This document shows, one piece after another, positions 1 through 53,964 of a stretch of 64,000 nt of DNA (position 1 is its first letter; each line of letters opens with the position of its first letter). Under the pieces are notes generated by a model that saw only the letters and a list, made by a program, of their open reading frames with translations, did no database searches and was not told the DNA's origin. Position numbers and translations under genes: made by a program. The stretch is from the sequence record PZ445443.1; one strand, written 5' to 3'. This DNA comes from a phage.

Positions 1-486
1 GGAAGATACCTTGACGAAGTTGGTAATCAACTTGGTATTCTTAGGAATGGACTTTCAGATGCTGATTTTCGTGCCACACTAATTATTCAGCAGGCCGCAG
101 CATCAAGGGGCGGGACTCGCGAAGATGTCATCTCCACCTTGCGACAATTGTTCGGAAGAGACAATTTCGATACGTGGAAAGGAGACAACTTCAGGTTTGA
201 CATAAATATTAGAAAAACTTGCTTTGACATATTGCAGTCTATCGATCAGATCTTAGATATGCTACCATTACCTTGTCATTTGCGTCTTACAGAATCGCAA
301 GGGCAAGCTTTTGGTTTTGAAGGGGACTCTACAGCTCTTGGCTTCGGATCAGTGTGGGAAGAAAGCCAATTCGGAGTTGGTGGGCTGGCTACTTTGCTAT
401 ATGTTCCTGACGTAAGACCTGATTGGGACACCACAACCATTTATTGTGAAAGTATTACAGTAAACGCAACTAGACAGGAGGGTTAA
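1..486 (+). CDS. virion structural protein, 5'-truncated at window edge (tail/baseplate module)
   Basis: Frame is open from nt 1 and continuous with ORF 139..486; stop TAA 484-486 overlaps next ATG (TAATG); sits in tail gene block. Confidence 0.45.
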   Translation, partial: GRYLDEVGNQLGILRNGLSDADFRATLIIQQAAASRGGTREDVISTLRQLFGRDNFDTWKGDNFRFDINIRKTCFDILQSIDQILDMLPLPCHLRLTESQGQAFGFEGDSTALGFGSVWEESQFGVGGLATLLYVPDVRPDWDTTTIYCESITVNATRQEG

Positions 487-2558
487 TGGCAACAGCTGTT
501 TTTAAACCTTACCGTGATTACTCTACAATGGCTGCACAGTTTCATTACCGAACAGTTCAGGATACTGCCGTTCCTGGTAGGGATTATAATCATGTTGAGG
601 GCGATGTAACTATCCCAGTTGGGGCAACCAGTATTGAGATCCCAGTGGAAATTGTTGACAAATTACCCAACAGGTTGCCAAGAAGCTTCTTTATGGAGTT
701 TTCATCAAAATCTCAAGGAGTGATGATTGGAACACAAAGGGCGAAATGTACAATAGTTTCAGATGAGAATCTTGACAGGATATCTTGGGATACTGTTGAG
801 GAGAGAATGTTTCACCCAAGATATTGGGTTACAACCACTCAGCAGACTGAAAGTACCTGTATTGTTGCAGATAACAACTGTTGTATTAACCGTTTAGTGT
901 CAAGAACATATGGAGGTATGGCTGGGTGCATTTGGGAAACAGTTGACAAGTATGACCATTTCGGTATTGGGTTTGATGATCACTATGAGATGAGAAACAC
1001 CAAGCTTTGGTTCAGAATGTCAATAACCAACGCCAGCAACTTCTCCACTCCTGAAAAGATGATTATGACTGTAGACCTTGTTGATGGCACAATCATCTAT
1101 GTTCCTTTAGCTCAATATGCTGTCAGCATCTCAGAGGATAAAAATGTTGCAGAAATTCATATTGATTTTGAGGACTGCGTCGGGATGGACCAGAACAACA
1201 ACATGATGGGTGTTGATCCTCGGCAGGTGAGAAGGATTTTAATACCACTTATGCCTAAAGACTGGGTAAGTAATAGCACAGATCCAAGAACGGAAAATGT
1301 AGAGTGTGAGTTGCGCCTAGATCTGCTTCAGCCAGACACAGGCTGGAAAATGATGCAACTTAATAATATCCAGGTGAGAGAGCACGACGTTGGGATCTGC
1401 ACCGCATATGACGATATGTGGAACGTGTCCCCTTTAAGGGTGTTGAACAATATCAAGCGTCTGGGCTATACCGGAACCATAAACCATTATGTTGGTATGA
1501 GTCATTATTATGACTACACATGGTCAGGAACCCAATGGTCTATAAACAGAACAGGAGCGCTAAACGCTGCAGCTTATAAATGGCATGATGATTTTATGTA
1601 CAATGCCAAACGACATAACTTCGACGTTATGCAATCTGTAAGTTTTGAGCTTTTCAGCGATGCCTGCCCGTTGGAATGGACCCAAAGAGACTGGAACGAT
1701 AACTACGCTAAAACAGGGTATACACCTTGTAGCTACCTCCTGTCTCCAACCATTGAAGAGGGTATGAATTTCCTTACTGCAGTATTTAAGAATTTTGCAT
1801 CAGCCGCTATGAGAAACAACCTGCCAGTGATTATGCAGGTTGGTGAACCGTGGTGGTGGTACAATACCGATACTCGTAGACCTTGTATTTATGATTACCC
1901 TACAAAACAGGCGTTTTATGATGAGACAGGCGAGTATGCATTAGATATTGGGACTATTGACGATCCTAAAACTGGCGGTGTTTACGACAAGTATGTAGCA
2001 TTTTGTCGTGGTAAGCTTGGCGCTCGTATTGCGGCTATTTCAAAGGCAATAAAAGCACACGCTGCATCAGCTCAGATGACAGCTTTGCTGTTTTTCCCAA
2101 CCATCATGGAAACCGAGCTTACGCAAAAGCTGAACCTTGCTGACCAATATAAAAAGGAAGCAGGTGCTCTTGATTTCTTCTGCACCGAGTGCTACGATTG
2201 GGTGATGCAGGGAGGTATTGAAAAGGCAAAAGAGTCTGTAAACATACCTATCGTTAAGTTAGGTTGGCAACCGTCTGAAATACAATACCTTGCAGGGTTC
2301 GTTCCTAGTAAAGAGCTTGCTCCGGTATATGGCTACGACCCAACCAGGAATTACCAAGAATTTTTATGGAGATGTATCTGCGGAAACATGGCAACCATAG
2401 AGTATAGATACCCTGAGGTAAAACAGTATGTGTGGGCATACCCGCAAGTAATGTCTGACAGCATCACTGTTACAGCCAGAGATTCTACCGTGCTTCATAT
2501 GGGGCAGGTTGCTCTGAAAGGGTATGTAGAAGATGTTGTCCCTCCAGACTTCTCATAA
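486..2558 (+). CDS. tail/baseplate-associated structural protein (690 aa), function unknown
   Basis: 690-aa ORF; AGGAGG at 474-479; translationally coupled to upstream ORF; immediately upstream of fibre genes. Confidence 0.5.
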   Translation: MATAVFKPYRDYSTMAAQFHYRTVQDTAVPGRDYNHVEGDVTIPVGATSIEIPVEIVDKLPNRLPRSFFMEFSSKSQGVMIGTQRAKCTIVSDENLDRISWDTVEERMFHPRYWVTTTQQTESTCIVADNNCCINRLVSRTYGGMAGCIWETVDKYDHFGIGFDDHYEMRNTKLWFRMSITNASNFSTPEKMIMTVDLVDGTIIYVPLAQYAVSISEDKNVAEIHIDFEDCVGMDQNNNMMGVDPRQVRRILIPLMPKDWVSNSTDPRTENVECELRLDLLQPDTGWKMMQLNNIQVREHDVGICTAYDDMWNVSPLRVLNNIKRLGYTGTINHYVGMSHYYDYTWSGTQWSINRTGALNAAAYKWHDDFMYNAKRHNFDVMQSVSFELFSDACPLEWTQRDWNDNYAKTGYTPCSYLLSPTIEEGMNFLTAVFKNFASAAMRNNLPVIMQVGEPWWWYNTDTRRPCIYDYPTKQAFYDETGEYALDIGTIDDPKTGGVYDKYVAFCRGKLGARIAAISKAIKAHAASAQMTALLFFPTIMETELTQKLNLADQYKKEAGALDFFCTECYDWVMQGGIEKAKESVNIPIVKLGWQPSEIQYLAGFVPSKELAPVYGYDPTRNYQEFLWRCICGNMATIEYRYPEVKQYVWAYPQVMSDSITVTARDSTVLHMGQVALKGYVEDVVPPDFS

Positions 2559-2570
2559 TCAGGAGATAAA

Positions 2571-3611
2571 ATGTCAAAACCTAGTTTTCCATTAGAGATT
2601 TGGGCAGAGGAGGATCAGGTTCTGCCTAACACCCACAGACAGAACAGGCTACGCCCGATTGATGATTTGTGGAGAAAAGGTTGGGATCTTGGTCAAAAGC
2701 CATCCTGTGAAGAACTTAACTATATTTTCAATATGCTCGGAACTTGGGCAAAATACATTGCTGACGAGCAGATCCCCGCTCAAGAAGGCCGTTATCTGGT
2801 ACGTGATAATAACTTGAGCGATCTTTTGAACATCCCTGTTGCCCGTAGAAACCTTGGGATTATCACTAAGGAAGAGGCAGACGCCAGGTATGTAAAAGTT
2901 ACAGGTGATACAATGACAGGCCCCTTGGGGTTGCAACGTATCAACTTTAAAGCTGCCGAGACAGATAAGGCTTGGATAGAGACAACTATTGGCCCAGATA
3001 AGACAACTCTCGACTTTGGGTTAAGTGATAATACCGGGTCGTTTGATGATGGTGGTACATCTACAGTAGATGCGTTTCGTTGGAGATTCCAGCCAACTCA
3101 GCCGGATATTAATCCAGAGTTCACTTTGATGTACCTTAACGCGATCACGGCTAATCGTGCGCTGTTGAAAGTGGTAGGCAATGTTGAAGTTGTCGATAAC
3201 ATGAGGTGCAATAACCTTACTATCAGCAATACAGCAACATTCACCAACTGTAATGTGGCTAGTCAGTTGACGGCTGGGTCAGTATATGTTAATGGTGGTG
3301 CAAGTTGTGACAGTATGGTTGTAAGAAGCCAGCACTGTGTTGTCGGTAACAGAAATGTGGTGCGCTCCGTGAATGGAGTGACGGCTAACGGTAACGGTGA
3401 TGTAACGATCACTATCCCGCAGACAGGTGTGCAAGACATCAGAATCGGTGCAAGACTTGTGGACGGCGTTTCTGAATCTCCAATCCGCAACGGCTACGTT
3501 GTCACAGGCTGGCATTTCGGTGACAAAAAAGAGATGCGTGGTTCAACCTACTGGGCAGGACCTTTACAAAAACTTGTAAATGGTCAATGGATCACTGTTA
3601 ATTATGCATAG
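2571..3611 (+). CDS. tail fibre protein, paralog 1
   Basis: 346 aa; RBS AGGAGA; N-terminal ~200 aa and C-terminal QKLVNGQWITVNYA shared with ORF 4626..5669; followed by Tfa-like gene. Confidence 0.7.
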   Translation: MSKPSFPLEIWAEEDQVLPNTHRQNRLRPIDDLWRKGWDLGQKPSCEELNYIFNMLGTWAKYIADEQIPAQEGRYLVRDNNLSDLLNIPVARRNLGIITKEEADARYVKVTGDTMTGPLGLQRINFKAAETDKAWIETTIGPDKTTLDFGLSDNTGSFDDGGTSTVDAFRWRFQPTQPDINPEFTLMYLNAITANRALLKVVGNVEVVDNMRCNNLTISNTATFTNCNVASQLTAGSVYVNGGASCDSMVVRSQHCVVGNRNVVRSVNGVTANGNGDVTITIPQTGVQDIRIGARLVDGVSESPIRNGYVVTGWHFGDKKEMRGSTYWAGPLQKLVNGQWITVNYA

Positions 3612-3625
3612 ATCGGAGGACTAGC

Positions 3626-4210
3626 ATGAAAATACTTCAAGAGTTTAAACTTTACCAACCGGGATCTGGCGAATACCACTCCAACAAGGAAACCAAGGAG
3701 CTGACCCCTCAAGAGGTCGAGGATTACACCGCATACACTGGGTATTTTTTACGTAATGATGATGGTGATTGGTATGTGCAGTCACGAACATTACGACAAG
3801 AAAATCCAGGGTGTATCTTCCTACTTGTTGACGAGAAGGGAATTCTTAAGACATCTACAGAAGAACCTGATGCCTTATGGCCTGCTCCAGGTCTTCGTGT
3901 GGTTATCGCCAAAAAAGAAGAGGTACCAGAAAACATTATGCTTCACCACGACGCTTTGCGTTTAGTTGGTGATGGATTTGTCACAGACAATGAATTCTTT
4001 GTTCAACAGGCAGAGGGTGTCATAGAGACAGAACTTGCTTGGGCTACTGCTAGAATTGGTGCCTATCAAGACATGATTGACCTTGAATATGATCTTACTG
4101 ATGACCAGAAACGTAACATCAGAGATTTGAAAATGTACAGGGTAAAACTTCTTGAAATAGATACATCTAAAGCCCCTGACATTTTCTTCCCGGAGCGACC
4201 TACCCTCTAA
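3626..4210 (+). CDS. tail fibre assembly chaperone (Tfa/gpG-like)
   Basis: 194 aa; C-terminal LKMYRVKLLEIDTSKAPDIFFPERP fits the conserved Tfa C-terminal signature (YRV-L--ID-S-AP-I-FP--P) as recalled; sits directly 3' of a fibre gene. Confidence 0.7.
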   Translation: MKILQEFKLYQPGSGEYHSNKETKELTPQEVEDYTAYTGYFLRNDDGDWYVQSRTLRQENPGCIFLLVDEKGILKTSTEEPDALWPAPGLRVVIAKKEEVPENIMLHHDALRLVGDGFVTDNEFFVQQAEGVIETELAWATARIGAYQDMIDLEYDLTDDQKRNIRDLKMYRVKLLEIDTSKAPDIFFPERPTL

Positions 4211-4221
4211 GAGGAGGTGTT

Positions 4222-4536
4222 GTGGAGTTGGATTTGGCGGCATTGTACGGTATCTGCATGGGTACCGTTGTCCCGATCTGTGTATGGGCTTTCAACCAGT
4301 GGCACACCAAATGGAAAGGCATTTCCAAGAGGTTGGATGAGCTGGAGAAAGACCTCATCTTAGTGAAAAACAGTATGGTTACAAAAGATAGACTTGATTC
4401 CGTTATCGAGACTCGGTTAAGCAAGCTAGAGGCCGATATTAACGACCTTAAGCAGGATGTCAGGACAGATGTCTCCGGCATCCGAGCTGATGTACAAAAG
4501 ATTTTGCACATGCTCGTAGAGCATAGTAAAAGGTAA
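4222..4536 (+). CDS. small membrane-anchored coiled-coil protein (GTG start)
   Basis: 104 aa; GAGGAGG 4 nt upstream of GTG; N-terminal hydrophobic helix then charged heptad-like region. Confidence 0.4.
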   Translation: MELDLAALYGICMGTVVPICVWAFNQWHTKWKGISKRLDELEKDLILVKNSMVTKDRLDSVIETRLSKLEADINDLKQDVRTDVSGIRADVQKILHMLVEHSKR

Positions 4537-4545
4537 ACAAAGGTC

Positions 4546-4579
4546 AGAACGGAAAGGACTCCGTTCTTGCATTTTGTTC
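4546..4579 (+). terminator. rho-independent terminator
   Basis: Stem AGAACGGA/TCCGTTCT with 6-nt loop followed by TGCATTTTGTTC. Confidence 0.6.
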
Positions 4580-4625
4580 TCTAAAGTGTTAAAATAGTCC
4601 TAAGGAATTTTCTCAGGAGAACGTG

Positions 4626-5669
4626 ATGACTAAACCAGTTATCCCTCTTGATATTTGGGCCAATCAGGATGTTGTGCTTGAAAATACGGGAGAGTTGAAT
4701 AAATCTCAACCAAAAAAAGAAGAGAGATTGAAAGGTTGGGATATGACACAAAGAATGGCATGTGAAGTTGTTAACTTTGAACTTCACATGCTTTCTGCGT
4801 GGTTGAAGCATTTAACAGAAGATGTTGTCCCAGGATGGGATAATAGATTCTTAAGGGTCACTAATAATCTAGCAGACGTTCCAGACAAAGCTGCTGCACG
4901 TCAAGTTCTCAATGTATACTCACCTGAAGAAATGGACGATCTATATGTTGACAAGTCTGGAGACATAATGACTCAGACTCAAACTTTAGGTCTTCAAAGA
5001 ATCGAGTTTGCATCTGCGTCAACAGACAGTGCGGCAATATATACCACCATAACTCCAGACAAGACGACGATGGATTTCTGGATTATGGACAACATCGGTG
5101 GTGCTGACGGCACAGACCTTGATGATCCTTCTCACCAAATAGATGGGTTCCGTTGGAGATTTCAACCTTCTGGTGGGCAGCCTGTGTTTTCAGCTATGAA
5201 GCTCAATGCTATAACTGCCAACCGTGCAAGACTGGCTATCCAAGGAAATCTTGAATGCAACGATGCAAAAAGTTCCTCTGCAAATGCCAATGCGGTCACG
5301 ATACCAAGAGCCACTGTTAATGGACAACAATCCTGCGGAAGCGCTCAAATAGGTGGAAGAGTTGATTGTAACGATGAAACCGTCAGGGGCCAATATGCAA
5401 CAGTTGGTGGAAGAAACGTGGTCCGCAGGGTAAATGGTAACGGCGCAGACAGTAGCGGTAACCTTACTATCCCTATGCCTAGCAGAGGGGTTGATGATGT
5501 AAGGATAGCAAACCGTTTTAAAACCACCTACAGAGAGTCAAGAGTCTACCCTGGACATGTGATGTGCTCTGGTAACTACGCTTATAAACACCCTTATCAA
5601 GGTGATTACTGGACAGGTGCTATCCAAAAACTTGTAAATGGTCAATGGATCACTATATCTTATGCTTAA
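4626..5669 (+). CDS. tail fibre protein, paralog 2
   Basis: 347 aa from ATG 4626 (GTG 4623 also in frame); RBS AGGAGAA; conserved N-terminal domain and C-terminal AIQKLVNGQWITISYA shared with paralog 1, central region divergent. Confidence 0.7.
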   Translation: MTKPVIPLDIWANQDVVLENTGELNKSQPKKEERLKGWDMTQRMACEVVNFELHMLSAWLKHLTEDVVPGWDNRFLRVTNNLADVPDKAAARQVLNVYSPEEMDDLYVDKSGDIMTQTQTLGLQRIEFASASTDSAAIYTTITPDKTTMDFWIMDNIGGADGTDLDDPSHQIDGFRWRFQPSGGQPVFSAMKLNAITANRARLAIQGNLECNDAKSSSANANAVTIPRATVNGQQSCGSAQIGGRVDCNDETVRGQYATVGGRNVVRRVNGNGADSSGNLTIPMPSRGVDDVRIANRFKTTYRESRVYPGHVMCSGNYAYKHPYQGDYWTGAIQKLVNGQWITISYA

Positions 5670-5680
5670 AAAGAGGGTAA

Positions 5681-5947
5681 ATGAAACTAACTCAGTTTTT
5701 ATGGGGACTGGTTGCGGCATCTGATGACCCTACGAAAGTGTCCCAATCTAAGCTATGGTCGAACATAGGCATGGCGGTGATGACTGGGGTGTTTATTCAT
5801 ATGGGGTATAATGATACGCTTCCTGAATGGTATGCGTGGATATACGCGCCTTCAGTAGCTTGCCCCCAGCTTATTAGCAAATTCATCTCGCTCCGGTGGG
5901 GTTGCCAGCACCCTGACCACGTTAAAAACGAAGAGCAAAAAGCTTAA
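5681..5947 (+). CDS. hypothetical protein (88 aa) downstream of fibre paralog 2
   Basis: ORF track; RBS AGAGGG; hydrophobic central segment; no Tfa signature. Confidence 0.45.
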   Translation: MKLTQFLWGLVAASDDPTKVSQSKLWSNIGMAVMTGVFIHMGYNDTLPEWYAWIYAPSVACPQLISKFISLRWGCQHPDHVKNEEQKA

Positions 5948-5956
5948 GGAGAAATC

Positions 5957-7702
5957 ATGGCGCAAGACATGACAAGCTTTGAGCAGGCGGTAGATCAAGT
6001 AATTGTTGATTCTGAACGTTTGCACCTGATTGTCAACGGTAACGCTGTGGATGAAGTTGTCGTAGAGGATGGGACCACCATCCCTACGGTACGAAAAGCC
6101 ATGCTTGACACCCTTTATTTTAAAACGCCACCGATCCCTTGGGCGTATGGTGCATCCACAACAGTTTTTAACCAGCTGTACGAGTTTAAAGGGGACACAG
6201 GCCCTCAGTGGTGGTACGCTCCCGCAGCATCAAAATCTAACCCGGTTAGAATGCCAGCAGATCCTTCACAATCTCCAAACTGGAGATTATATACCGATTC
6301 TGCAGTAATGGCAAAATACTACGCAAAACTTAACAGTCCGAGGTTCGAAGGTGACCCGCGAGTACCTACGCCTCCAATGGACGACAAATCCGAGTCTATA
6401 GCAAACACAGAGTTTGTTGTTGACTATGTGGATAGCATATTTGAAGCCATGGAGGGAATGAAAGTTACTGTAGGGTCTTTGGTGGTAAAAGGTCTTACAG
6501 AACTTGCTAACACTATAGTTGGTGGCACACTCACCTTACATGGGCCTGTTAATGGAGCAGATTCTACTGCACGCTTCAGGAACCTAATCCTCACGGCAAA
6601 TACTTCTACACTTACTTTTGCGTGGAGTGATCCTAAGCATGCAGACTGGAGAAGCACAGAGCTGCAACCTCATGAAGTGTCCACCCACAGGGTTATAGCT
6701 GACACTATAACTTCTGGGAAACCAGTGGCTAATAATAACGATGTGCATTTTGATGGTCTAGGTAATAACTTTTTTGACTACGTGTACATTCGTGGTAATG
6801 CCATGAAGGCAGCAACCGAACCGACATTGCAGGTAGATGGAACCACCAGGGTTAAGAACCTTGAGGTGACAGGCACTGTTACAGGGATAACCTACTCTGT
6901 CGATGGCACCATGATTTACCCTAGCTATATTGAAAGCACTGGGGACGCATTAATAAATGGTGATTTAGAAGTTGGCGGATCTGTAGTTATTCGAGGTACA
7001 GCCTCTATCCAAAACATAGCTCTGAATACCCTAAGAGTCAATGAGCGTGCAACTTTTGAGGGGGAAGGGCTTACAGCCAACAAAGGTGTAATTACCGAGC
7101 TGACAACCACTACTTTAACTGCAACAACTGCAAACTCTGAAAACTGCAACGTTACCAGAAACTTGCAGGTAAATGGAGATGTTAGTTTAAACGCAGCAGG
7201 GACGGGCACCACCTACCTTCACAACCTTGAAATATCCGGCACAGTGACTGGGTGGCTGCCAGACTTCTCTAATGTCAACTTTGTTTGTAATGGCATTAAC
7301 TCCAGTGGCAAGATAACCACCTCTCAAGAAATTGAGGCGGGTAAAACCATTACTGCCCCTACTTTCCACGCAGGAAAGGTAGATTTTGATTTAGAGGAGG
7401 TTGACGCGTCCAGTGGGACATGGACACCTAACGGGCAGGCCAGTATGTATGTTGTCCACGCGAAAGGGGATTTTACAATAGGACAATGGCCTGGTACATC
7501 AGCGGAAGATAAACCTTATCCATTCACTGCGGTTATCTATGTCATTCAGGATGCTGTAGGTCACAACGTGACTTTGCACGATAAGTATGCTATCCTGTCG
7601 GCAACGCCTGTTATTAATAACAAGGCTAATAGTGTTACCTTGCTGCAATTAACATATTGTGGTGTTGGTGATATCGTAGACGTAGTAATTGCACAACGTT
7701 AA
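5957..7702 (+). CDS. tail fibre / tailspike-like protein (581 aa)
   Basis: RBS AAGGAG; Thr/Gly/Asn/Val-rich beta-type repeats typical of fibre shafts; within fibre block. Confidence 0.6.
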   Translation: MAQDMTSFEQAVDQVIVDSERLHLIVNGNAVDEVVVEDGTTIPTVRKAMLDTLYFKTPPIPWAYGASTTVFNQLYEFKGDTGPQWWYAPAASKSNPVRMPADPSQSPNWRLYTDSAVMAKYYAKLNSPRFEGDPRVPTPPMDDKSESIANTEFVVDYVDSIFEAMEGMKVTVGSLVVKGLTELANTIVGGTLTLHGPVNGADSTARFRNLILTANTSTLTFAWSDPKHADWRSTELQPHEVSTHRVIADTITSGKPVANNNDVHFDGLGNNFFDYVYIRGNAMKAATEPTLQVDGTTRVKNLEVTGTVTGITYSVDGTMIYPSYIESTGDALINGDLEVGGSVVIRGTASIQNIALNTLRVNERATFEGEGLTANKGVITELTTTTLTATTANSENCNVTRNLQVNGDVSLNAAGTGTTYLHNLEISGTVTGWLPDFSNVNFVCNGINSSGKITTSQEIEAGKTITAPTFHAGKVDFDLEEVDASSGTWTPNGQASMYVVHAKGDFTIGQWPGTSAEDKPYPFTAVIYVIQDAVGHNVTLHDKYAILSATPVINNKANSVTLLQLTYCGVGDIVDVVIAQR

Positions 7703-7752: not shown

Positions 7753-10700
7753 ATGCTTCCAATCCCTTTGCTAAAACTTGGTCGTCATTTCCTCGATAAG
7801 AGGGGTGGAATTAAGGAACTTGCTGTTCTGTCATACCCAATAGACAACAGTGATGGTACAAGCAACACAGTATCCTATGTAAATAGCTTAGCTATACTTT
7901 TTGATGATGGTCAGCTTAATATTACTGGCTATAATAGGTTCGGAGAGTGTCGGACTGGAGATCTTGATACAATAAACTATCCTAATGAGGCAGCTTGGAA
8001 CGTAGACCATGTTTGGAGAGCTGACCGTGCATTTGTAATCCGCACATTCGATAATAAATTTTTCTATATTGGTTGCACAGCTGGTCTTATCGGATCGGAG
8101 GCAGCAGGTGGAAACGATGTTTGTGTCAGAGAGTGGACACCTTTGCCGGAACAGATCGTAACAGGGTTGCATTTGGACACCCATCCTGAGAGACTTGTTG
8201 AAGTAATGGGTGGCGTAAACAATACCGTGTGGGTAATTGCTGCACCAGAGGCTGATGGTATGCTTCACCTGTACGGCTCTGGCAATAATACTTACGGCTC
8301 TCTTCATGTTGACAAAAGTCAACACGCTACTCCAGTTAAGATCGGTGAAACATCTGAAAGTCCAGAGACAGGTCCTTGGAAAAATCCAAGAATTAATTGT
8401 GAAGTTCATGACAACTCGGTTATTTTTGGTGGTCCTAACGGATTCTGGATTGCAGGTTACGACTTTCTGAGAAATAACAGTAGAAACGACCTTGTTTGGC
8501 CTCCTGTGCAGATTACTCGTAACGATTTGAGGGGCATTCCTGCAGATGAGGAGTGGAAAGGGTTTATGTGTGGTCCTAACGGGGCAGTAATTGCTACACA
8601 GAGGATGCATAGACCCGATGACCAGCAGCTTGTTAACGTATTTTATGGTCAAAACATTTGGGGAGATGATACATGGCGGGAACTGAATATCACCTACACC
8701 CATGAGGTAATGATGGCTCGTGGGTACGGCACAAGTGGCATTTTCTTCAATAATGGCACTAAGCAGTATCGTGGGTTCTCTCGCAACTTATGTAATGATA
8801 TTGGTGCACAATCTGCAAACAATAGTCCTAGGGCCGATTTTATCCACTATCAAGCTCTTGCTACAGCTAAATATGTTGAGCAACGCCTGCCAGTCAGCTG
8901 GACAGAGAGTGTTTATTTCCAAGGCATCCACAGAGAAGGTTTCTTAGGTACCTTTACTGTTGTTAATGGTAAACTTTGGTGGTCAGGTATCCCAAGGGGA
9001 AGTTTTACAGGATCTAATAACCTCTTTGGCGGCAGACTTAACAGCCAAGGGTTCACAGAGATTCCGGAGAATTGGTATAAAAATGTCCCGGTAGACAGTT
9101 GGGGTGTTGAGGATATTTTCGACGTTAACGGTGTTAGCAGCGTTAGCAATATTTACATTGGTGACACGGTCAAGATGAAATTGAAGCCTCAGCCAGAGGG
9201 GGCTACGTTCATTATTGACAAGATTGAACTGGTAAATGCTGCAGGCACGGTTGTTACAGATGCAAATTACCAATTCTCCACCAACTGGAACCACGGAGGG
9301 GCCAATGAAGTTGTTGTCACCCAGTATAACAGAAATGTTAACAGACGTGGCCTGTACTCTGTAAAAATAACCTATCATGACAAGCATGGCACAGGCAGAA
9401 CCCATACGACAAGGACTTTGAACTGGAACACCATAGTTCCTGCGTACCCGTCTGATGGTAAATGGCATACTGTCGGTAGAAACAAACAGTTCCATGTTAA
9501 TGATACTGTATACTTTGGGCTGAATGGGACCCAGCCTGCAGTAGAAGGGGATACATCGTATATGGTCAGACTCCACAGAATGGATGCTGGATCAGTCACT
9601 TATGATGTGACCCAAGAGATCTACGATCAAAGACGCGCCACGTATGACAATATTGTGAAAACACAAGCCTTGTGGGAGTTCAATCCTAATGGCAAGGGTG
9701 GTAAAATGTTGCAGGTTAATGAGCAGAACGGAACGTCGTTGACTGTTCACGAACACCCAGACCCTTGGCCTGATCCTGGAAAACCTCACCCAGGAGCTCG
9801 TACACTGAAAATTGTCAGCCATGATGCAGGGTATTTCGGAATACGCTGGGAAGCTACAGTAAGATATGTCGACGGGACAACAAACAACATAGGGATTACA
9901 CTTGGCGGCACTAGTGAAGATAACTCGCTGAAAATTGCCTACACGCCCAGAGGTATCTCTATTGATAATATGGATGTTGTTCGCAATGGTTACGGCGATG
10001 TGAATGTCAAAGTTACTCTTGGCGAACATCTTGGTGGGGAAAGGATCATCATGTATGCCTTTGATCATGATCCACGCACCAATGGAACTTATGCAAATCA
10101 GGCATGGAGTTACCTGATAAATGCACCTGAGCCGAATACTAAAGAGTTCTACTATGGTATGAAGCGAGATGTGTGCAAGAAAACAGGAACACATGACTGG
10201 ATTGCTATCTGCGTTAAAGATGAGCGCACAGCTTGGGATGAGCCTGTTAACAGATGGTTCATAGGTATTCCTACCAGAAGTGATAAGTATGTCGCAGAAT
10301 ATATTGTATGCATGGGCGGTACCAACCTAAACATGTGTTGGAACGAAGATGTAAACAAATACTCTGATTATGACTATATGAGGGATTACTCTTGTAATTT
10401 GTGGTTTAACCAAACTACAGGTTACCCTCCAAGACAGGCGAGAGTAAACCCTGCAATCTTCACAGACACGCAGGTTTTCTTGACAAAACAGGCCAACGAG
10501 GTCCAGACCTTCAAGAACAAATACGACCCTAATAAGTGGTTCTATAACTGCTATGGGGCATTTTTCTGGGGACCTGGAGAATTACCTGGTGGTGGCTCTT
10601 GTTTTGAGGCTGCAACTTACGCCAGTGACAGATTTATGGGCCAGGTCAAGAAATACAAGATAATTCCAGGGCCTGAAACTTTAGGCAACGCTGTCGACCC

Positions 10701-13209
10701 CTATATCATCATGAGTGATCTAAGATCGAACATGGATGGAACATCCATATCTATGCAAGTTCCGGTAACAAACGGATACAAGCGTGTTGTGATGATCATT
10801 AAGTGCGATCTGATAGGTAAGCAAGTTCTTGCAGAGAACGGAACTTCCACCCACCTATTTGAGACTGCTCTGCACTATCAGTTTGCTGATTCACCTTTTG
10901 CAGGGGATAAGAGAATATCTGACACAGACGCTGTGCGATGCAAGAAATTTATGCTAGGTGGTGGGTGGTGGTGGTATGAATTTGACTTAACAGACAAATT
11001 CACCGACACGTCTAAAGTAGTGACGGGGCTTCGTCTAGACCTTGGCGAAAACATGCACAAAAGTGTTTGTGATGGCACCTACGGTGACCCAACAATCTAC
11101 TTAAAGTATGTCTCTTTTGAGCACCCAGAGGATGTTGTTTATGGTCCAAAACTGAGACTGTTTGGCAATTGGATTGCTAAAGACAGGGTAGGTATGGGCA
11201 AGAAGGTAAGAGGCTTCTTAATGGATGCAGGTACAGAGGACATGCTAGTCAATGCAGTGTGGCCTGAATTACCTGGGACTCAGTGGAACAACTCAGCCAA
11301 ATCTATAAACTGGTTCAATATCCACAGGGCTATGTGGACAACCAACTGTTACCTGTGGAAAGAGCTGAATGACGGCGCTTTCGGGTTCACAGGCGGCAGA
11401 AGAATGGCAATCATTTGCTGGACAACGTTGCAAAGATGTTATGACCATGACTACGAGATTGGAGGTAGGGCATGGAAAAATATTAGGGATAGAATCATAA
11501 CCAACTTTGCAGATCCTAACGGTGGTGGAGCGTATGGCTTCGACTGCAGCAGGCTCATCCATTTGAACGGATCCTCTGCCTACAAGAAAGAAGGTTACTC
11601 TGGGTCTATGATAGAATGGGGCCTGGTGAAAGATGCTCGCGTGCTGATGGGTCAACAACTTGCTGCTGCAATAGGTCCTAATGCAGTGCAATCTGTTAAA
11701 CCTGCGTGGTTTGATATCCCATTGTGGTCATCCGGTACACCAGGAACTGCTGCAATCAACCCTACCACGGGGGATCTGGAAATCTCTTGGGAGGACTTGA
11801 AGCAGGTTGGAGGCTGGGATAAAACAGGGTATCAGGTCCAGTGGTGGAGGGCTGACGGATCTTTAGCCGCTGATGAGTTTGTTAAGGACAATTTCTACAC
11901 TATGTCCTCTGCAAAAGCACAGGAATTGTTCGGTCAGGCAACTCCGTCAACGATCACCATGTCTATGTGCTGTAAAGACAACAGGACTGGAGCTTTGGGG
12001 CCAAGGGTTGCTAAAGTTTTCTCAGGTATTAAATGGAATCTACCTGTCCAAAGTATTTCATGGAAGCAAATAGGTGATAACAAGCTGCTGGTTACCCCTG
12101 CCTGTCAGTTCAACGCAACTCTTAACGTTGATCCTGCTGTTGCGGCAAACTCAGCTAAAGCTTCTGACTTCTCTGTGTCTAACACTGCTATGGCAGATGT
12201 TAGGAAGATTGACACGCTGAACGCCAGAATTACCTGTAAAAACACTTATGGCACATTCCAAATCATCAACAACTTCACAGATGCTGATTCTAAGGTAGTG
12301 AGGACAGCAAGCCAGACTCTGAGTTTAGGAACTCTGGCCTATGCGGCCCTGATCACCGAGCAGTCGGCAACACTCCAAGGAGGTGGTGTAGGCAAGTCCA
12401 TTGCAACACCTGTGTGGAAGCCAAATGAGTGGGTTGTGTTTGATTTGACTGTGGACTTCTCCAGCGATAATAACTGGACATGGGTAAGGAATTGTTTGTC
12501 ACAATTGATGGGAGGTCCAAGCTCCGTTAGTGATAGTCACGACTCTACTGACCCGAGTGTGTTCCAGGTAGGTAAAACTCACCCAGAGACTGGAGAAACG
12601 TTGCCTGACAGGAAGTATGCGTTGGTTTGCATCTCTTACGGGAAGGCAGATGTCACCTTCTCAGGGACACACACTTATAACGGAACCTACAATTTCTCAA
12701 GGAAGTATAGTCTCAAAGCAGGGAACATTATAGACGAGGTTGGTGCACTGTATAATCCTGGCAACGGCATAGGGATTGTGGGTGGTCAACTGCAGATGCA
12801 GGAACCTTCTATTACCCCTTCCAACGTATCTGGGATTAGAAAGACTTGGGAAAGTAGCAATACCAACATTGCAACAGTGGATGCTACCACAGGACTGGTA
12901 ACATTTAAAGCTACTGGGAATGTCACCATAAAGTTTGTAGTTACAGATGATGCAGGCCGCAAAACGTCCTCAACATCATTCACTGTCAAACAGATGGCAC
13001 CTCAGTGGTTTATTTGGGAAGGAAATCCTCTTGACGGGGCCTACCCTAGACCTGCAGGAACGTCTAATATGAGGGTCTTTACCGGTCCGGTAATGAACAA
13101 TCCGACCACAACCACCAACCCTACATTTTTGGTGCTTACATACCTGAAATTATTGGCCTACCAAGGAACCAGATACAACTGCTTTTCGGAGCAGGTGTTG
13201 ATGGTCTAG
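7753..13209 (+). CDS. large tail fibre / host-specificity protein (1818 aa) with C-terminal Ig-like (Big_2-type) segment; 3' end probably frameshifted
   Basis: 1818-aa ORF; Big_2-like stretch TWESSNTNIATVDATTGLVTFKATGNVTIKFVVTDDAGRKTSS; a -1 frame continues to 13379. Confidence 0.65.
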   Translation: MLPIPLLKLGRHFLDKRGGIKELAVLSYPIDNSDGTSNTVSYVNSLAILFDDGQLNITGYNRFGECRTGDLDTINYPNEAAWNVDHVWRADRAFVIRTFDNKFFYIGCTAGLIGSEAAGGNDVCVREWTPLPEQIVTGLHLDTHPERLVEVMGGVNNTVWVIAAPEADGMLHLYGSGNNTYGSLHVDKSQHATPVKIGETSESPETGPWKNPRINCEVHDNSVIFGGPNGFWIAGYDFLRNNSRNDLVWPPVQITRNDLRGIPADEEWKGFMCGPNGAVIATQRMHRPDDQQLVNVFYGQNIWGDDTWRELNITYTHEVMMARGYGTSGIFFNNGTKQYRGFSRNLCNDIGAQSANNSPRADFIHYQALATAKYVEQRLPVSWTESVYFQGIHREGFLGTFTVVNGKLWWSGIPRGSFTGSNNLFGGRLNSQGFTEIPENWYKNVPVDSWGVEDIFDVNGVSSVSNIYIGDTVKMKLKPQPEGATFIIDKIELVNAAGTVVTDANYQFSTNWNHGGANEVVVTQYNRNVNRRGLYSVKITYHDKHGTGRTHTTRTLNWNTIVPAYPSDGKWHTVGRNKQFHVNDTVYFGLNGTQPAVEGDTSYMVRLHRMDAGSVTYDVTQEIYDQRRATYDNIVKTQALWEFNPNGKGGKMLQVNEQNGTSLTVHEHPDPWPDPGKPHPGARTLKIVSHDAGYFGIRWEATVRYVDGTTNNIGITLGGTSEDNSLKIAYTPRGISIDNMDVVRNGYGDVNVKVTLGEHLGGERIIMYAFDHDPRTNGTYANQAWSYLINAPEPNTKEFYYGMKRDVCKKTGTHDWIAICVKDERTAWDEPVNRWFIGIPTRSDKYVAEYIVCMGGTNLNMCWNEDVNKYSDYDYMRDYSCNLWFNQTTGYPPRQARVNPAIFTDTQVFLTKQANEVQTFKNKYDPNKWFYNCYGAFFWGPGELPGGGSCFEAATYASDRFMGQVKKYKIIPGPETLGNAVDPYIIMSDLRSNMDGTSISMQVPVTNGYKRVVMIIKCDLIGKQVLAENGTSTHLFETALHYQFADSPFAGDKRISDTDAVRCKKFMLGGGWWWYEFDLTDKFTDTSKVVTGLRLDLGENMHKSVCDGTYGDPTIYLKYVSFEHPEDVVYGPKLRLFGNWIAKDRVGMGKKVRGFLMDAGTEDMLVNAVWPELPGTQWNNSAKSINWFNIHRAMWTTNCYLWKELNDGAFGFTGGRRMAIICWTTLQRCYDHDYEIGGRAWKNIRDRIITNFADPNGGGAYGFDCSRLIHLNGSSAYKKEGYSGSMIEWGLVKDARVLMGQQLAAAIGPNAVQSVKPAWFDIPLWSSGTPGTAAINPTTGDLEISWEDLKQVGGWDKTGYQVQWWRADGSLAADEFVKDNFYTMSSAKAQELFGQATPSTITMSMCCKDNRTGALGPRVAKVFSGIKWNLPVQSISWKQIGDNKLLVTPACQFNATLNVDPAVAANSAKASDFSVSNTAMADVRKIDTLNARITCKNTYGTFQIINNFTDADSKVVRTASQTLSLGTLAYAALITEQSATLQGGGVGKSIATPVWKPNEWVVFDLTVDFSSDNNWTWVRNCLSQLMGGPSSVSDSHDSTDPSVFQVGKTHPETGETLPDRKYALVCISYGKADVTFSGTHTYNGTYNFSRKYSLKAGNIIDEVGALYNPGNGIGIVGGQLQMQEPSITPSNVSGIRKTWESSNTNIATVDATTGLVTFKATGNVTIKFVVTDDAGRKTSSTSFTVKQMAPQWFIWEGNPLDGAYPRPAGTSNMRVFTGPVMNNPTTTTNPTFLVLTYLKLLAYQGTRYNCFSEQVLMV

Positions 13210-32367: not shown

Positions 32368-32850
32368 ATGTCAGATTTTATGTGGAAAGTAGGTTACGCA
32401 ACCCCTGAAATGTGTGAGGCTTGCTTTGTTAAAATAGGCCGCGAGGATATCGACAAAGTGATCCTTAAGTTTCGTGATGTGGCTGTGATCGGCAACCGAG
32501 TGCTTAAGCACTTAAAGAATCTGAAGCTCACCAAAAAGAAGTTCTTCGGACTTTTCGAAGAGAAGGTTGATGCTTGGACTCATTGCATTCAGGAAGCCAA
32601 ATCTCACTACAGTGCCATCGTTACTCCAGAACGGGTAGCAAAGATGGAAGGATTCATCAACAGCACAGAATTTGAGTGCCTAAAGGCTGCCCTTGATAGC
32701 TATCCAAAGTGCCTCAAACACCTTGACAAGTATGCAGAAAAGGATGGTGAAATGTATCTCACCCTGGACGCATATTATGAGATGCAAGAAATTTTAAATT
32801 TAGATTTGACATTGGTATCCACCGAGTATACAATAGGTATCCGGGTTTAA
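32368..32850 (+). CDS. hypothetical protein (160 aa)
   Basis: ORF track; RBS AAGGAG. Confidence 0.5.
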   Translation: MSDFMWKVGYATPEMCEACFVKIGREDIDKVILKFRDVAVIGNRVLKHLKNLKLTKKKFFGLFEEKVDAWTHCIQEAKSHYSAIVTPERVAKMEGFINSTEFECLKAALDSYPKCLKHLDKYAEKDGEMYLTLDAYYEMQEILNLDLTLVSTEYTIGIRV

Positions 32851-53929: not shown

Positions 53930-53964
53930 TAAACCCTGTTAAAATACCACGCAGTTAACAAGGA

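What the first reader, a model, noticed from the sequence alone, without database searches (positions are those of the whole stretch)
2571..5669. Duplicated tail-fibre cassette with conserved termini and divergent receptor-binding middle
Fibre genes 2571-3611 and 4626-5669 share a conserved N-terminal ~200 aa and an almost identical C-terminal 14-16 aa (QKLVNGQWIT(V/I)xYA), but differ in the central and distal region. Only the first is followed by a Tfa-type chaperone. Together with the 581-aa and 1818-aa fibre-like proteins, the phage seems to carry several receptor-binding proteins.
Basis: partly seen in the sequence, partly recalled or inferred. Interest (0 to 1): 0.4.

Follow-up and report, generated by a model that had tools for sequence, protein, structure and literature searches.

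The report
Known rV5-type short tail fibre paralogs
The window comes from an rV5-like coliphage, and the two similar genes are its two already-described short tail fibre paralogs with one shared-looking assembly chaperone; this is an ordinary, published feature, with a few small new details about how the copies evolve.

Summary
The window is a Vequintavirus (rV5-like myovirus), 99.9% identical to phage MaxTheCat/Bas57. Genes 2571-3611 and 4626-5669 are rV5 gp33 and gp30. They are true paralogs: 43% identity over the full length, E 2e-94. Gene 3626-4210 is the only Tfa-type chaperone (rV5 gp32).

The pair is already published. Kropinski 2013 reported 42.3% identity and suggested "two chemotypes of LPS". 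[quoted passage not shown]

Identity is patchy and the N-terminal 120 aa are not specially conserved (35-43%). The C-terminal motif is a family-wide signature.

- The duplication is confined to Vequintavirus and two metagenomic lineages. Fibre 2 sits where other genera carry a 157-aa four-TM gene.
- Fibre 2 follows a hairpin and the predicted late promoter P030.
- Fibre 2 alone lacks the near-invariant N-terminal PIDDLW motif.
- Synonymous sites are saturated except in 10 terminal codons (30 nt identical). Those codons co-vary between the paralogs across lineages, which indicates gene conversion.

Whether one Tfa serves both fibres, and where fibre 2 docks on the baseplate, remain untested. 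Interest is low.

The parts
486..2558 (+). 690-aa lateral fibre protein (rV5 gp34 homologue) with N4 gp65-like domains. Upstream context; last gene before fibre 1.
   Evidence: Pfam TIM-barrel_NCTSP 4e-80, NCTSP_N and Calx-beta. MaxTheCat annotates a lateral tail fibre with glycosidase and deacetylase domains. The literature assigns NGR polysaccharide binding to this family.
2571..3611 (+). Short tail fibre paralog 1 (346 aa; rV5 gp33). This is the canonical copy. Its N-terminal baseplate joint keeps the PIDDLW motif and its C-terminal tip is Mu gpS-like.
   Evidence: phrog_4465 1.8e-171. Residues 1-108 match the phiTE short tail fibre in PDB 9CUY, E 1.4e-19; residues 286-343 match Mu gpS 5YVQ residues 440-501. 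Foldseek to 5YVQ gives 8e-7. It is 52/51/48% identical to the single-copy orthologues of Av-05, PVP-SE1 and 4MG. dN/dS 0.017-0.023.
3567..3596 (+). 30-nt tract (codons 333-342, QKLVNGQWIT) identical to 5625-5654 in fibre 2.
   Evidence: Ten consecutive identical codons, while third positions elsewhere are 35% identical; binomial P 8e-5, run-permutation p 0.0025. Synonymous variants co-occur in both paralogs in other lineages.
3626..4210 (+). Tail fibre assembly chaperone (194 aa; rV5 gp32), lambda Tfa / Mu gpU class. It is the only one in the window, and relatives show one per genome.
   Evidence: Pfam Caudo_TAP on residues 122-192, 45.6 bits against a 22.1 cut-off. phrog_136 1.3e-35. It is the only hit of a Tfa HMM among 484 window ORFs. 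tblastn finds one place per sampled Vequintavirus genome.
4222..4536 (+). 104-aa ORF (rV5 gp31), function unknown. The PVP-SE1 homologue is annotated as a membrane protein with one TM domain. It is conserved directly after the Tfa in single-copy genera too.
   Evidence: phrog_5345 1.5e-48, unknown function. Synteny in Av-05, PVP-SE1, KpS11, 4MG and metagenomic loci. No PDB relative.
4546..4567 (+). Terminator-like hairpin in the 89-nt gap before fibre 2.
   Evidence: Consensus scan: 8-9 bp stem, 4 G-C pairs, followed by a T-rich tail. A prediction only.
4574..4610 (+). Predicted late promoter P030 of rV5 (core TGTTAAAATA at 4587-4596), directly upstream of fibre 2.
   Evidence: The sequence is identical to P030 in rV5 Table S4. 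The motif TGKTAAAATA occurs 3 times in the window against 0.42 expected. Not experimentally verified.
4626..5669 (+). Short tail fibre paralog 2 (347 aa; rV5 gp30). This is the faster-evolving copy. It lacks the PIDDLW motif and has a diverged tip (GHVMCSGNYAYKHPYQG where the family has GHVxTGWxFGDKKExRG).
   Evidence: phrog_4465 2.1e-166. Residues 1-83 match the phiTE short tail fibre, E 1.1e-9, but there is no sequence hit to Mu gpS. Foldseek to 5YVQ gives 1e-6 on a low-confidence model. It is 38-43% identical to single-copy Vequintavirinae orthologues. dN/dS 0.052-0.063. Motif loss shown.
5625..5654 (+). 30-nt tract (codons 334-343) identical to 3567-3596 in fibre 1.
5681..5947 (+). 88-aa membrane protein (rV5 gp29), conserved before the 581-aa fibre gene in the Vequintavirinae genera examined.
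   Evidence: phrog_1322 2.7e-32, 'membrane protein'. Synteny.
5957..7702 (+). 581-aa fibre protein (rV5 gp28), homologue of the phiTE baseplate-attached 'putative tail fiber protein'.
   Evidence: PDB 9cuy_g, E 8.7e-77, residues 8-325. phrog_4549. Orthologues carry Pfam Phage_phiTE_241_N and _C.
7753..13209 (+). 1818-aa Ig-like lateral fibre protein (rV5 gp27 homologue). Here it is cut short by a 1-nt deletion in a T run at about 13126, relative to the 1875-aa MaxTheCat protein.
   Evidence: Pfam Big_2 and phrog_15684. Frameshift shown by alignment to MaxTheCat.

Best explanation
These are the two paralogous short tail fibre (STF) genes of a Vequintavirus (rV5 gp33 and gp30), together with their single Tfa chaperone (gp32). 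Both proteins belong to the trimeric fibre class of Mu gpS and the phiTE STF.

Inferred from relatives: an N-terminal joint of about 100 aa anchors the fibre to the baseplate wedge, and the C-terminal tip binds the LPS core for irreversible adsorption.

Shown here:
- The second copy arose by duplication in the Vequintavirus lineage. It sits in the slot where sister genera have a 157-aa four-TM gene.
- It follows a terminator-like hairpin and the predicted late promoter P030.
- It evolves about three times faster at non-synonymous sites, while both copies remain under strong purifying selection.
- The paralog types are defined by their N-terminal and shaft regions. Fibre 2 alone lost the family's near-invariant PIDDLW motif.
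- The extreme C-terminal tail is kept the same in both copies. This happens by short-tract gene conversion in four Vequintavirus lineages, and through near-identity of the whole tip (75-100% at the protein level) in a fifth, metagenomic lineage.

Inferred mechanism:
- The two fibres occupy different docking positions on the baseplate and present two different tips, giving two LPS-core specificities.
- Both depend on the one Tfa. By analogy with Mu, its variable N-domain binds the fibre's C-terminal tip, which would explain why the tails evolve in concert.

The confidence of 0.9 applies to the identification (paralogous Vequintavirus short tail fibres plus one Tfa). The inferred mechanism (distinct docking, shared chaperone) I put at about 0.5.
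For: - Identity: 99.9% DNA identity to MaxTheCat, with matching CDS coordinates and annotation. rV5 gene map.
- Paralogy: E 2e-94.
- Prior descriptions: Kropinski 2013 and Maffei 2021.
- Family placement: phiTE STF N-terminus (9CUY) and Mu gpS (5YVQ) by sequence and fold. In phiTE, STF residues 3-92 form a joint on wedge protein 1. In phi92 the homologue gp147 is a downward-pointing fibre on wedge protein gp145, proposed to mediate irreversible adsorption.
- Receptor: LL12 and the BASEL Vequintavirinae need waaC/waaF/waaG, that is, the first outer-core glucose.
- Lineage-specific duplication: two places per genome in every sampled Vequintavirus record of about 116, and one place in Avunavirus, Seunavirus, Mydovirus, Henunavirus and Justusliebigvirus. 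The slot of the 157-aa PF26221 gene is occupied by fibre 2. A neighbour-joining tree groups fibre 1 and fibre 2 as sisters (64% bootstrap), with fibre 2 on the longer branch.
- Own promoter.
- Purifying selection: dN/dS 0.02 (fibre 1) and 0.05-0.06 (fibre 2).
- Type-specific N-termini: fibre-2-type residues 1-75 are 77% and 52% conserved across lineages, against 36-39% between paralogs. PIDDLW is lost only in fibre-2-type sequences among 31 homologues.
- Concerted tail. In lineage L012 both tails became ...WAAPLQKLVNGQWITVQTL while its Tfa is only 47% identical to this one.
- Tfa modularity and tip binding in Mu.
- One Tfa per genome.
Against: - No experiment assigns a receptor, a baseplate position or a chaperone requirement to either paralog.
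- Virion incorporation of gp30, gp32 and gp33 is asserted in the rV5 text, but those proteins do not appear in the parts of the deposited MS table (Table S5) that I read. The table's summary counts 19 identified proteins. I saw 18 of them in parts 1, 3 and 4 and did not read part 2.
- The C-terminal motif is family-wide, so its protein-level conservation could reflect tip folding alone.
- AlphaFold monomer models are low confidence (pLDDT 62-63), so the tip comparison is weak, especially for fibre 2, which has no sequence-level hit to Mu gpS.
- The Tfa itself has no sequence hit to Mu gpU in the PDB.
- Sister grouping of the paralogs has only 64% bootstrap support.
Confidence: 0.9

Rival explanations
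1. The shared C-terminal tail has nothing to do with the chaperone. It is the last beta-strand of the trimeric tip fold and is conserved for structural reasons in every member of the family. The DNA-level identity is incidental gene conversion seeded by that conserved stretch. Fibre 2 folds on its own or with host chaperones.
For: - The motif (I/L)QK(L/Y)(V/I)NGxW is present in nearly all 31 homologues, in Mu gpS and in the phiTE short tail fibre.
- In lineage L012 the tract is saturated at synonymous sites yet 100% identical at the protein level, which shows protein-level selection.
- Fibre 2 is separated from the Tfa gene by a hairpin and its own predicted promoter.
Against: - The residues around the core motif also change in parallel in both paralogs of a lineage (VNYA/ISYA against VQTL/VQTL; GPL/GAI against AAPL/AAPL), alongside a strongly diverged Tfa.
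- In the Mu complex the Tfa binds the fibre's C-terminal tip.
- No other chaperone candidate is specific to fibre 2. The 104-aa and 88-aa genes are also present in single-copy genera.
Confidence: 0.3
2. The pair is a modular host-range cassette. Conserved 5' and 3' ends serve as recombination anchors, so the receptor-binding middle can be swapped between copies or between phages.
For: - There is a 30-nt identical tract at the 3' ends, with evidence of gene conversion.
- The tip of fibre 1 (aa 287-344) is 58.6% identical to fibres of unrelated 52-kb phages such as JEP7, SE13 and yarpen, so tips do move horizontally on long time scales.
- In lineage L012 the two paralogs share a nearly identical tip, consistent with replacement of one copy's tip by the other's.
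Against: - There is no DNA-level conservation at the 5' ends (third-position identity 30-35%).
- The middle regions show no shuffling among about 116 Vequintavirus genomes. Fibre 1 is at least 95% identical in 115 records and fibre 2 in 115. Maffei 2021 reports 'no considerable allelic variation'.
- Conversion tracts lie at the distal end, not in the middle.
- There are no flanking inverted repeats, and no recombinase is annotated in the corresponding region of MaxTheCat.
Confidence: 0.08
3. One copy, most likely fibre 2, is a redundant or decaying duplicate that contributes nothing to the virion.
For: - Fibre 2 evolves faster and has lost the PIDDLW baseplate-joint motif and the canonical tip motif.
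- gp30 does not appear in the parts of the deposited rV5 MS table that I read.
Against: - The ORF is intact in more than 100 genomes and in two deeply diverged lineages.
- dN/dS is 0.05-0.06.
- The fibre-2-type N-terminus is conserved across lineages.
- It has its own predicted late promoter.
- The rV5 text lists gp30 among the detected proteins.
Confidence: 0.04

Closest known systems
[quoted passage not shown]
   Same: These are the same genes. The best hits are 99-100% identical at the protein level, in the same order and spacing. The 42-43% identity between paralogs was already reported, as was the homology to the phi92-like locus and to Mu GpS/GpU.
   Different: Nothing substantive differs. 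This window's copy of the downstream 1875-aa fibre gene carries a 1-nt frameshift.
Phage Mu tail fibre gpS with chaperone gpU (TfaMu), PDB 5YVQ
   Same: - The C-terminal tip of fibre 1 aligns to gpS residues 440-501, including the terminal QKxxNGxW motif. Both models have 5YVQ as their top Foldseek hit.
- The chaperone gene lies immediately downstream and has a variable N-domain and a conserved C-domain.
- The receptor is LPS core.
   Different: - Mu has one expressed fibre at a time and switches its C-terminal part together with the chaperone by Gin-mediated inversion (my own knowledge). Here two complete fibre genes lie in the same orientation, are presumably both expressed, and have one chaperone and no invertase.
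- The N-terminal domain here is of the phiTE type.
- The Tfa has no sequence-level hit to gpU in the PDB.
Single short tail fibre of phiTE (gp236, PDB 9CUY) and of phi92 (gp147, 'fiber III')
   Same: - The N-terminal approximately 100 aa are homologous, E 1.4e-19 for fibre 1 and 1.1e-9 for fibre 2.
- The locus has the same syntenic order: STF, Tfa, a ~104-aa gene, and then the 581-aa-type fibre gene downstream.
- The fibre is anchored on the baseplate wedge and points downward.
   Different: - Those phages have one copy (six trimers), so docking is unambiguous.
- The phiTE short tail fibre is 554 aa with a coiled coil and Ig-like distal domains, and is proposed to bind flagella.
T4 gp12 short tail fibre
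   Same: It plays the same functional role as an LPS-core-binding fibre for irreversible adsorption. HHpred similarity was reported for both rV5 proteins.
   Different: T4 has a single gene, uses a different chaperone (gp57A, my own knowledge), and its fibres are folded under the baseplate. Homology was not tested here.

Membership tests
Vequintavirinae / Mu-gpS-type short tail fibre (PHROG 4465) | Full-length match to the family profile | tested here: met
   phrog_4465: fibre 1 1.8e-171 and fibre 2 2.1e-166, each covering profile positions 1-342 of 342.
Vequintavirinae / Mu-gpS-type short tail fibre (PHROG 4465) | N-terminal baseplate-joint domain homologous to the phiTE short tail fibre (residues 3-92 resolved on wedge protein 1) | tested here: met
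   phmmer against 9cuy_c: fibre 1 1.4e-19 (residues 1-108) and fibre 2 1.1e-9 (residues 1-83). Caveat: fibre 2 lacks the near-invariant PIDDLW motif, and its model matches 9CUY only weakly (E 0.31).
Vequintavirinae / Mu-gpS-type short tail fibre (PHROG 4465) | C-terminal tip domain homologous to Mu gpS (5YVQ), ending in the QKxxNGxW motif | tested here: inconclusive
   Fibre 1 meets it: phmmer 1.7e-6, residues 286-343 against gpS 440-501. Fibre 2 has no sequence hit and only a Foldseek hit (1e-6) from a model with pLDDT 61.5. The terminal motif is present in both.
Vequintavirinae / Mu-gpS-type short tail fibre (PHROG 4465) | Homotrimer attached to the baseplate wedge and present in the virion | not testable with these tools
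   Only monomer prediction is available. The rV5 text lists gp30 and gp33 as detected, but they do not appear in the parts of the deposited MS table that I read.
Vequintavirinae / Mu-gpS-type short tail fibre (PHROG 4465) | Binds the LPS core as terminal receptor | not testable with these tools
   The literature shows that LL12 and the BASEL Vequintavirinae require waaC/waaF/waaG, but the requirement has not been assigned to either paralog.
Tail fibre assembly protein (Pfam PF02413 Caudo_TAP; lambda Tfa / Mu gpU class) | Pfam match above the gathering threshold in the conserved C-terminal domain | tested here: met
   45.6 bits against a 22.1 cut-off, residues 122-192. phrog_136 1.3e-35.
Tail fibre assembly protein (Pfam PF02413 Caudo_TAP; lambda Tfa / Mu gpU class) | Gene immediately downstream of its client fibre, with a variable N-domain and a conserved C-domain | tested here: met
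   It starts 14 nt after the fibre 1 stop codon. The N-domain is less conserved than the C-domain in most comparisons (72 vs 86% for L014, 42 vs 53% for L012, 28 vs 37% for Av-05); KpS11 and PaulScherrer are exceptions. This holds for fibre 1 only; fibre 2 has no adjacent Tfa.
Tail fibre assembly protein (Pfam PF02413 Caudo_TAP; lambda Tfa / Mu gpU class) | Physically binds the fibre tip and is required for trimer folding | not testable with these tools
   No multimer modelling or experiment is available. There is no PDB sequence relative.
Invertible or switchable tail-fibre cassettes (Mu G segment, P1 C segment) | Alternative fibre 3' segments in opposite orientation, flanked by inverted repeats, with an adjacent Gin/Cin-type invertase | tested here: not met
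   Both are complete genes on the same strand. The only inverted repeats are 14-18 nt and 78-93% complementary. No recombinase is annotated within 12 kb on either side in MaxTheCat.

The most novel reading that the evidence does not exclude
Vequintaviruses mount two sets of short tail fibres at two different baseplate positions. The fibre-2 type would have re-engineered its N-terminal joint after losing the PIDDLW motif. Both sets would be folded by a single dual-client Tfa, and recurrent gene conversion of the last 10-60 codons would keep the two fibre tails compatible with that one chaperone. This would be a compact way to add a second LPS-core specificity without adding a second chaperone.
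Probability: 0.35. Interest if true: 0.4.

Novelty: already known. Interest (0 to 1): 0.2.

Why it matters
rV5-like phages are broad-host-range coliphages and common candidates for therapy and biocontrol. Their many fibres are thought to explain that range. Knowing which of the two short tail fibres reads which LPS core type, and whether one chaperone serves both, would help in engineering host range. The existence of the paralog pair and its chaperone has been in the literature since 2013 and 2021, so the finding itself adds nothing new. The incremental points here give concrete hypotheses for a structural or genetic study: the slot replacement, the separate predicted promoter, the loss of PIDDLW in fibre 2, and the concerted evolution of the 3' tail.

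Tried and rejected
- AlphaFold2 monomer models of both fibres from a 31-sequence alignment gave pLDDT 62.8 and 61.5 and pTM about 0.3.
- phmmer of the Tfa against the PDB found no Mu gpU or other chaperone hit.
- I looked for direct proteomic proof that both paralogs are in virions. The rV5 text says so. The parts of Table S5 that I read (1, 3 and 4) show 18 of the 19 counted loci, and none of them is gp30, gp32 or gp33; I did not read part 2. The E. coli O177 'proteomics' paper is in silico only. The PVP-SE1 paper is not held.
- I tested whether the 157-aa four-TM protein that fibre 2 replaces is a resolved baseplate component. It has no PDB match.
- I searched for a second Tfa or a third fibre paralog in the window with local HMMs and found none.
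- I considered an inversion or cassette switch and rejected it.
- I considered nucleotide-level function of the 30-nt tract. I rejected it because lineage L012 has a saturated tract (30% third-position identity) with identical protein sequence, and because the tract co-varies between lineages rather than staying fixed.
- No cryo-EM study of a Vequintavirus sensu stricto is in the held literature.

Full report
**What the window is.** Bases 2400-6000 are 99.9% identical to Escherichia phage MaxTheCat (Bas57). They are 95-99% identical to about 100 other Vequintavirus (rV5-like) genomes. The ORF between them, bas57_0035, is annotated 'tail fiber chaperone'. In rV5 numbering the order is:
- gp34: 690 aa, N4 gp65-like
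- gp33: fibre 1
- gp32: Tfa
- gp31: 104 aa
- gp30: fibre 2
- gp29: 88 aa, membrane
- gp28: 581 aa
- gp27: large Ig-like protein

**Checking the observation.** The two proteins align end to end, with 153/356 identical residues and E 2e-94. The local alignment score is 707, against 37 +/- 6 for shuffled sequence, so the paralogy is real. The C-terminal near-identity is real. Only fibre 1 is followed by a Tfa (Pfam Caudo_TAP above threshold). A Tfa HMM finds no other ORF in the window, and tblastn finds one Tfa place in each sampled Vequintavirus genome.

The 'conserved N-terminal 200 aa, divergent middle' description does not hold. Identity by fibre-1 residue is 43% (1-60), 35% (61-120), 55% (121-200), 26% (201-250), 48% (251-300), 30% (301-330) and 75% (331-346).

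**It is already published.** Kropinski et al. 2013 (PMC3606486) describe gp30 (347 aa) and gp33 as 42.3% identical and similar to T4 gp12. [quoted passage not shown] Maffei et al. [quoted passage not shown] They also state that the paralogs show no considerable allelic variation between genomes. LL12 and the BASEL Vequintavirinae depend on waaC/waaF/waaG, which places the terminal receptor at the first outer-core glucose.

**Family placement.**
- The N-terminal approximately 100 aa of both proteins match the short tail fibre of phiTE in the baseplate structure 9CUY, with E 1.4e-19 and 1.1e-9. In that structure residues 3-92 form a globular joint on wedge protein 1.
- In phi92 the homologue gp147 ('fiber III') hangs from wedge protein gp145 as six trimers. 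It is proposed to mediate irreversible adsorption.
- Fibre 1 residues 286-343 align to Mu gpS 440-501 in the gpS-Tfa complex 5YVQ.
- Both AlphaFold models are low confidence (pLDDT 62.8 and 61.5), but 5YVQ is their top Foldseek hit at about 1e-6.
- In Mu, the Tfa's variable N-domain binds the fibre tip and stays bound, while the conserved C-domain is thought to drive trimerisation. The Tfa here shows the same split in most comparisons, with a poorly conserved N-domain and a better conserved C-domain carrying the Pfam match.

**What the comparison with relatives adds.**

1. *The duplication is lineage-specific.* tblastn finds two places per genome in every sampled Vequintavirus record. It finds one place in Avunavirus, Seunavirus, Mydovirus, Henunavirus and Justusliebigvirus. 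Single-copy loci from the Vequintavirinae genera Avunavirus, Seunavirus and Mydovirus, and three metagenomic contigs, read STF, Tfa, 104 aa, 157 aa (four TM, Pfam Phage_phiTE_239), about 88 aa, then the 581-aa-type fibre. In Vequintavirus, fibre 2 occupies the slot of the 157-aa gene.

2. *Fibre 2 looks separately transcribed.* It is preceded by an 89-nt gap holding a terminator-like hairpin. The gap also contains the exact sequence of rV5's predicted late promoter P030. Fibre 1 follows the upstream gene after 12 nt.

3. *Fibre 1 is the conservative copy.* It is 47-52% identical to orthologues in other Vequintavirinae genera, against 38-43% for fibre 2. A neighbour-joining tree still pairs the paralogs (64% bootstrap), with fibre 2 on the longer branch. 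Within the genus, dN/dS is 0.017-0.023 for fibre 1 and 0.052-0.063 for fibre 2. Both are therefore functional, and fibre 2 evolves about three times faster.

4. *Fibre 2 has a changed N-terminus.* Among 31 diverse homologues, only fibre-2-type sequences lack the RPI(D/N)DLWxKG(W/Y)D motif of the N-terminal joint. The fibre-2-type N-terminus is itself conserved across lineages (77% and 52%), against 36-39% between paralogs. This argues for a distinct docking mode rather than decay.

5. *The tips differ.* Fibre 2's tip replaces the family's GHVxTGWxFGDKKExRG with GHVMCSGNYAYKHPYQG. This is consistent with a different ligand.

**The C-terminal tail.** At the protein level, (I/L)QKLVNGxW is a family signature. 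At the DNA level there is more to it.
- Third-codon positions are saturated between the paralogs (35% identical), except in the last 17 codons (76%). Ten consecutive codons are identical, with binomial P 8e-5 and run-permutation p 0.0025.
- Across lineages the synonymous states change together in both copies. AAT becomes AAC in EcoIv14a_Aya and FV3. CTT, GTA and CAA become CTG, GTC and CAG in the Logan contig L014, whose genes are otherwise saturated at synonymous sites relative to this window. This is the signature of short-tract gene conversion.
- In a deeper metagenomic lineage (L012: fibre 1 73%, Tfa 47% and fibre 2 48% identical to the window) the two paralogs share the whole tip. Residues 286-325 are 75% identical and residues 326-346 are 100% identical. 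Both tails end in a new sequence, VQTL, while the tract itself is saturated at synonymous sites.
- The tails are therefore kept alike by conversion and by protein-level selection, and they changed together with a much-diverged Tfa. That fits, but does not prove, one Tfa serving both fibres.

**What remains unknown.** No experiment assigns a receptor, a baseplate site or a chaperone dependence to either paralog. The rV5 paper's statement that gp30, gp32 and gp33 were detected in virions is not borne out by the parts of its deposited MS table that I read. I saw 18 of the 19 counted loci, none of them these three, and did not read part 2. No Vequintavirus sensu stricto baseplate structure is in the held literature.

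**Verdict.** This is a real, correctly located and already well-described feature. Its domain model is not. Novelty: already known. Interest: low.

Noticed in passing
window 13100-13209 (ORF 7753-13209): The '1818-aa fibre-like protein' is a frameshifted version of the 1875-aa protein of MaxTheCat. One T is missing from a T run at about 13126, which gives about 28 aberrant C-terminal residues and an early stop. This may be a homopolymer sequencing error or a genuine truncation.
   Followed up: partly
window 4222-4536 and 5681-5947; L003 6949-7422, L004 6997-7470: A conserved set of small genes lies inside the tail-fibre cluster of the Vequintavirinae genera examined: 104 aa, 157 aa and about 88 aa. 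PVP-SE1 annotates all three as membrane proteins with 1, 4 and 1 TM domains; the 157-aa one is Pfam Phage_phiTE_239. Vequintavirus lacks the 157-aa member, and fibre 2 sits in its place. Their function is unknown. A lysis or holin-like role is possible, as with T4 gene t after gene 38 (my own knowledge), but was not tested.
   Followed up: partly
rV5 paper PMC3606486, text versus Additional file 5: [quoted passage not shown] The deposited DTASelect table counts 19 loci. The 18 seen in parts 1, 3 and 4 include 27, 34, 37 and 41 but none of those six. Part 2, which should hold the remaining locus, was not read.
   Followed up: partly
GenBank MG0656xx records: Sixteen to 21 records named 'Campylobacter phage', with host listed as C. 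jejuni, are 99% identical to rV5-like coliphages across this locus. They are probably mislabelled or contaminant isolates.
   Followed up: no
fibre 1 aa 287-344 (window 3429-3602): The distal tip of fibre 1, but not of fibre 2, is 57-59% identical to the tail-fibre C-termini of unrelated 47-53-kb phages (JEP7, SD350, SPHG1, SE13, yarpen). This points to old horizontal sharing of the tip module.
   Followed up: no
window 3626-3760 (Tfa N-terminus): The Tfa proteins of the two-fibre lineages carry a 17-22-aa insertion near the N-terminus (GSGEYHSNKETKELTPQEVEDY). Most single-copy genera lack it, but one single-copy metagenomic lineage (L018) has a partial one, so the link to serving two clients is uncertain.
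   Followed up: partly
L012 (ENA ERZ15185469 NODE_327) and L014/L015 (Logan ERR6997038, SRR27327045): Two lineages from metagenome or sequencing-run assemblies keep the same two-fibre, one-Tfa layout: one with fibre 1 at 73% and one at 87% identity to this window. L012 has no close isolate in the phage collection; the best hit to its fibre 1 is 75%.
   Followed up: partly
window 32427-32436 and 53937-53946: There are two further exact copies of the late-promoter-like core TGTTAAAATA on the + strand. Their context was not examined.
   Followed up: no
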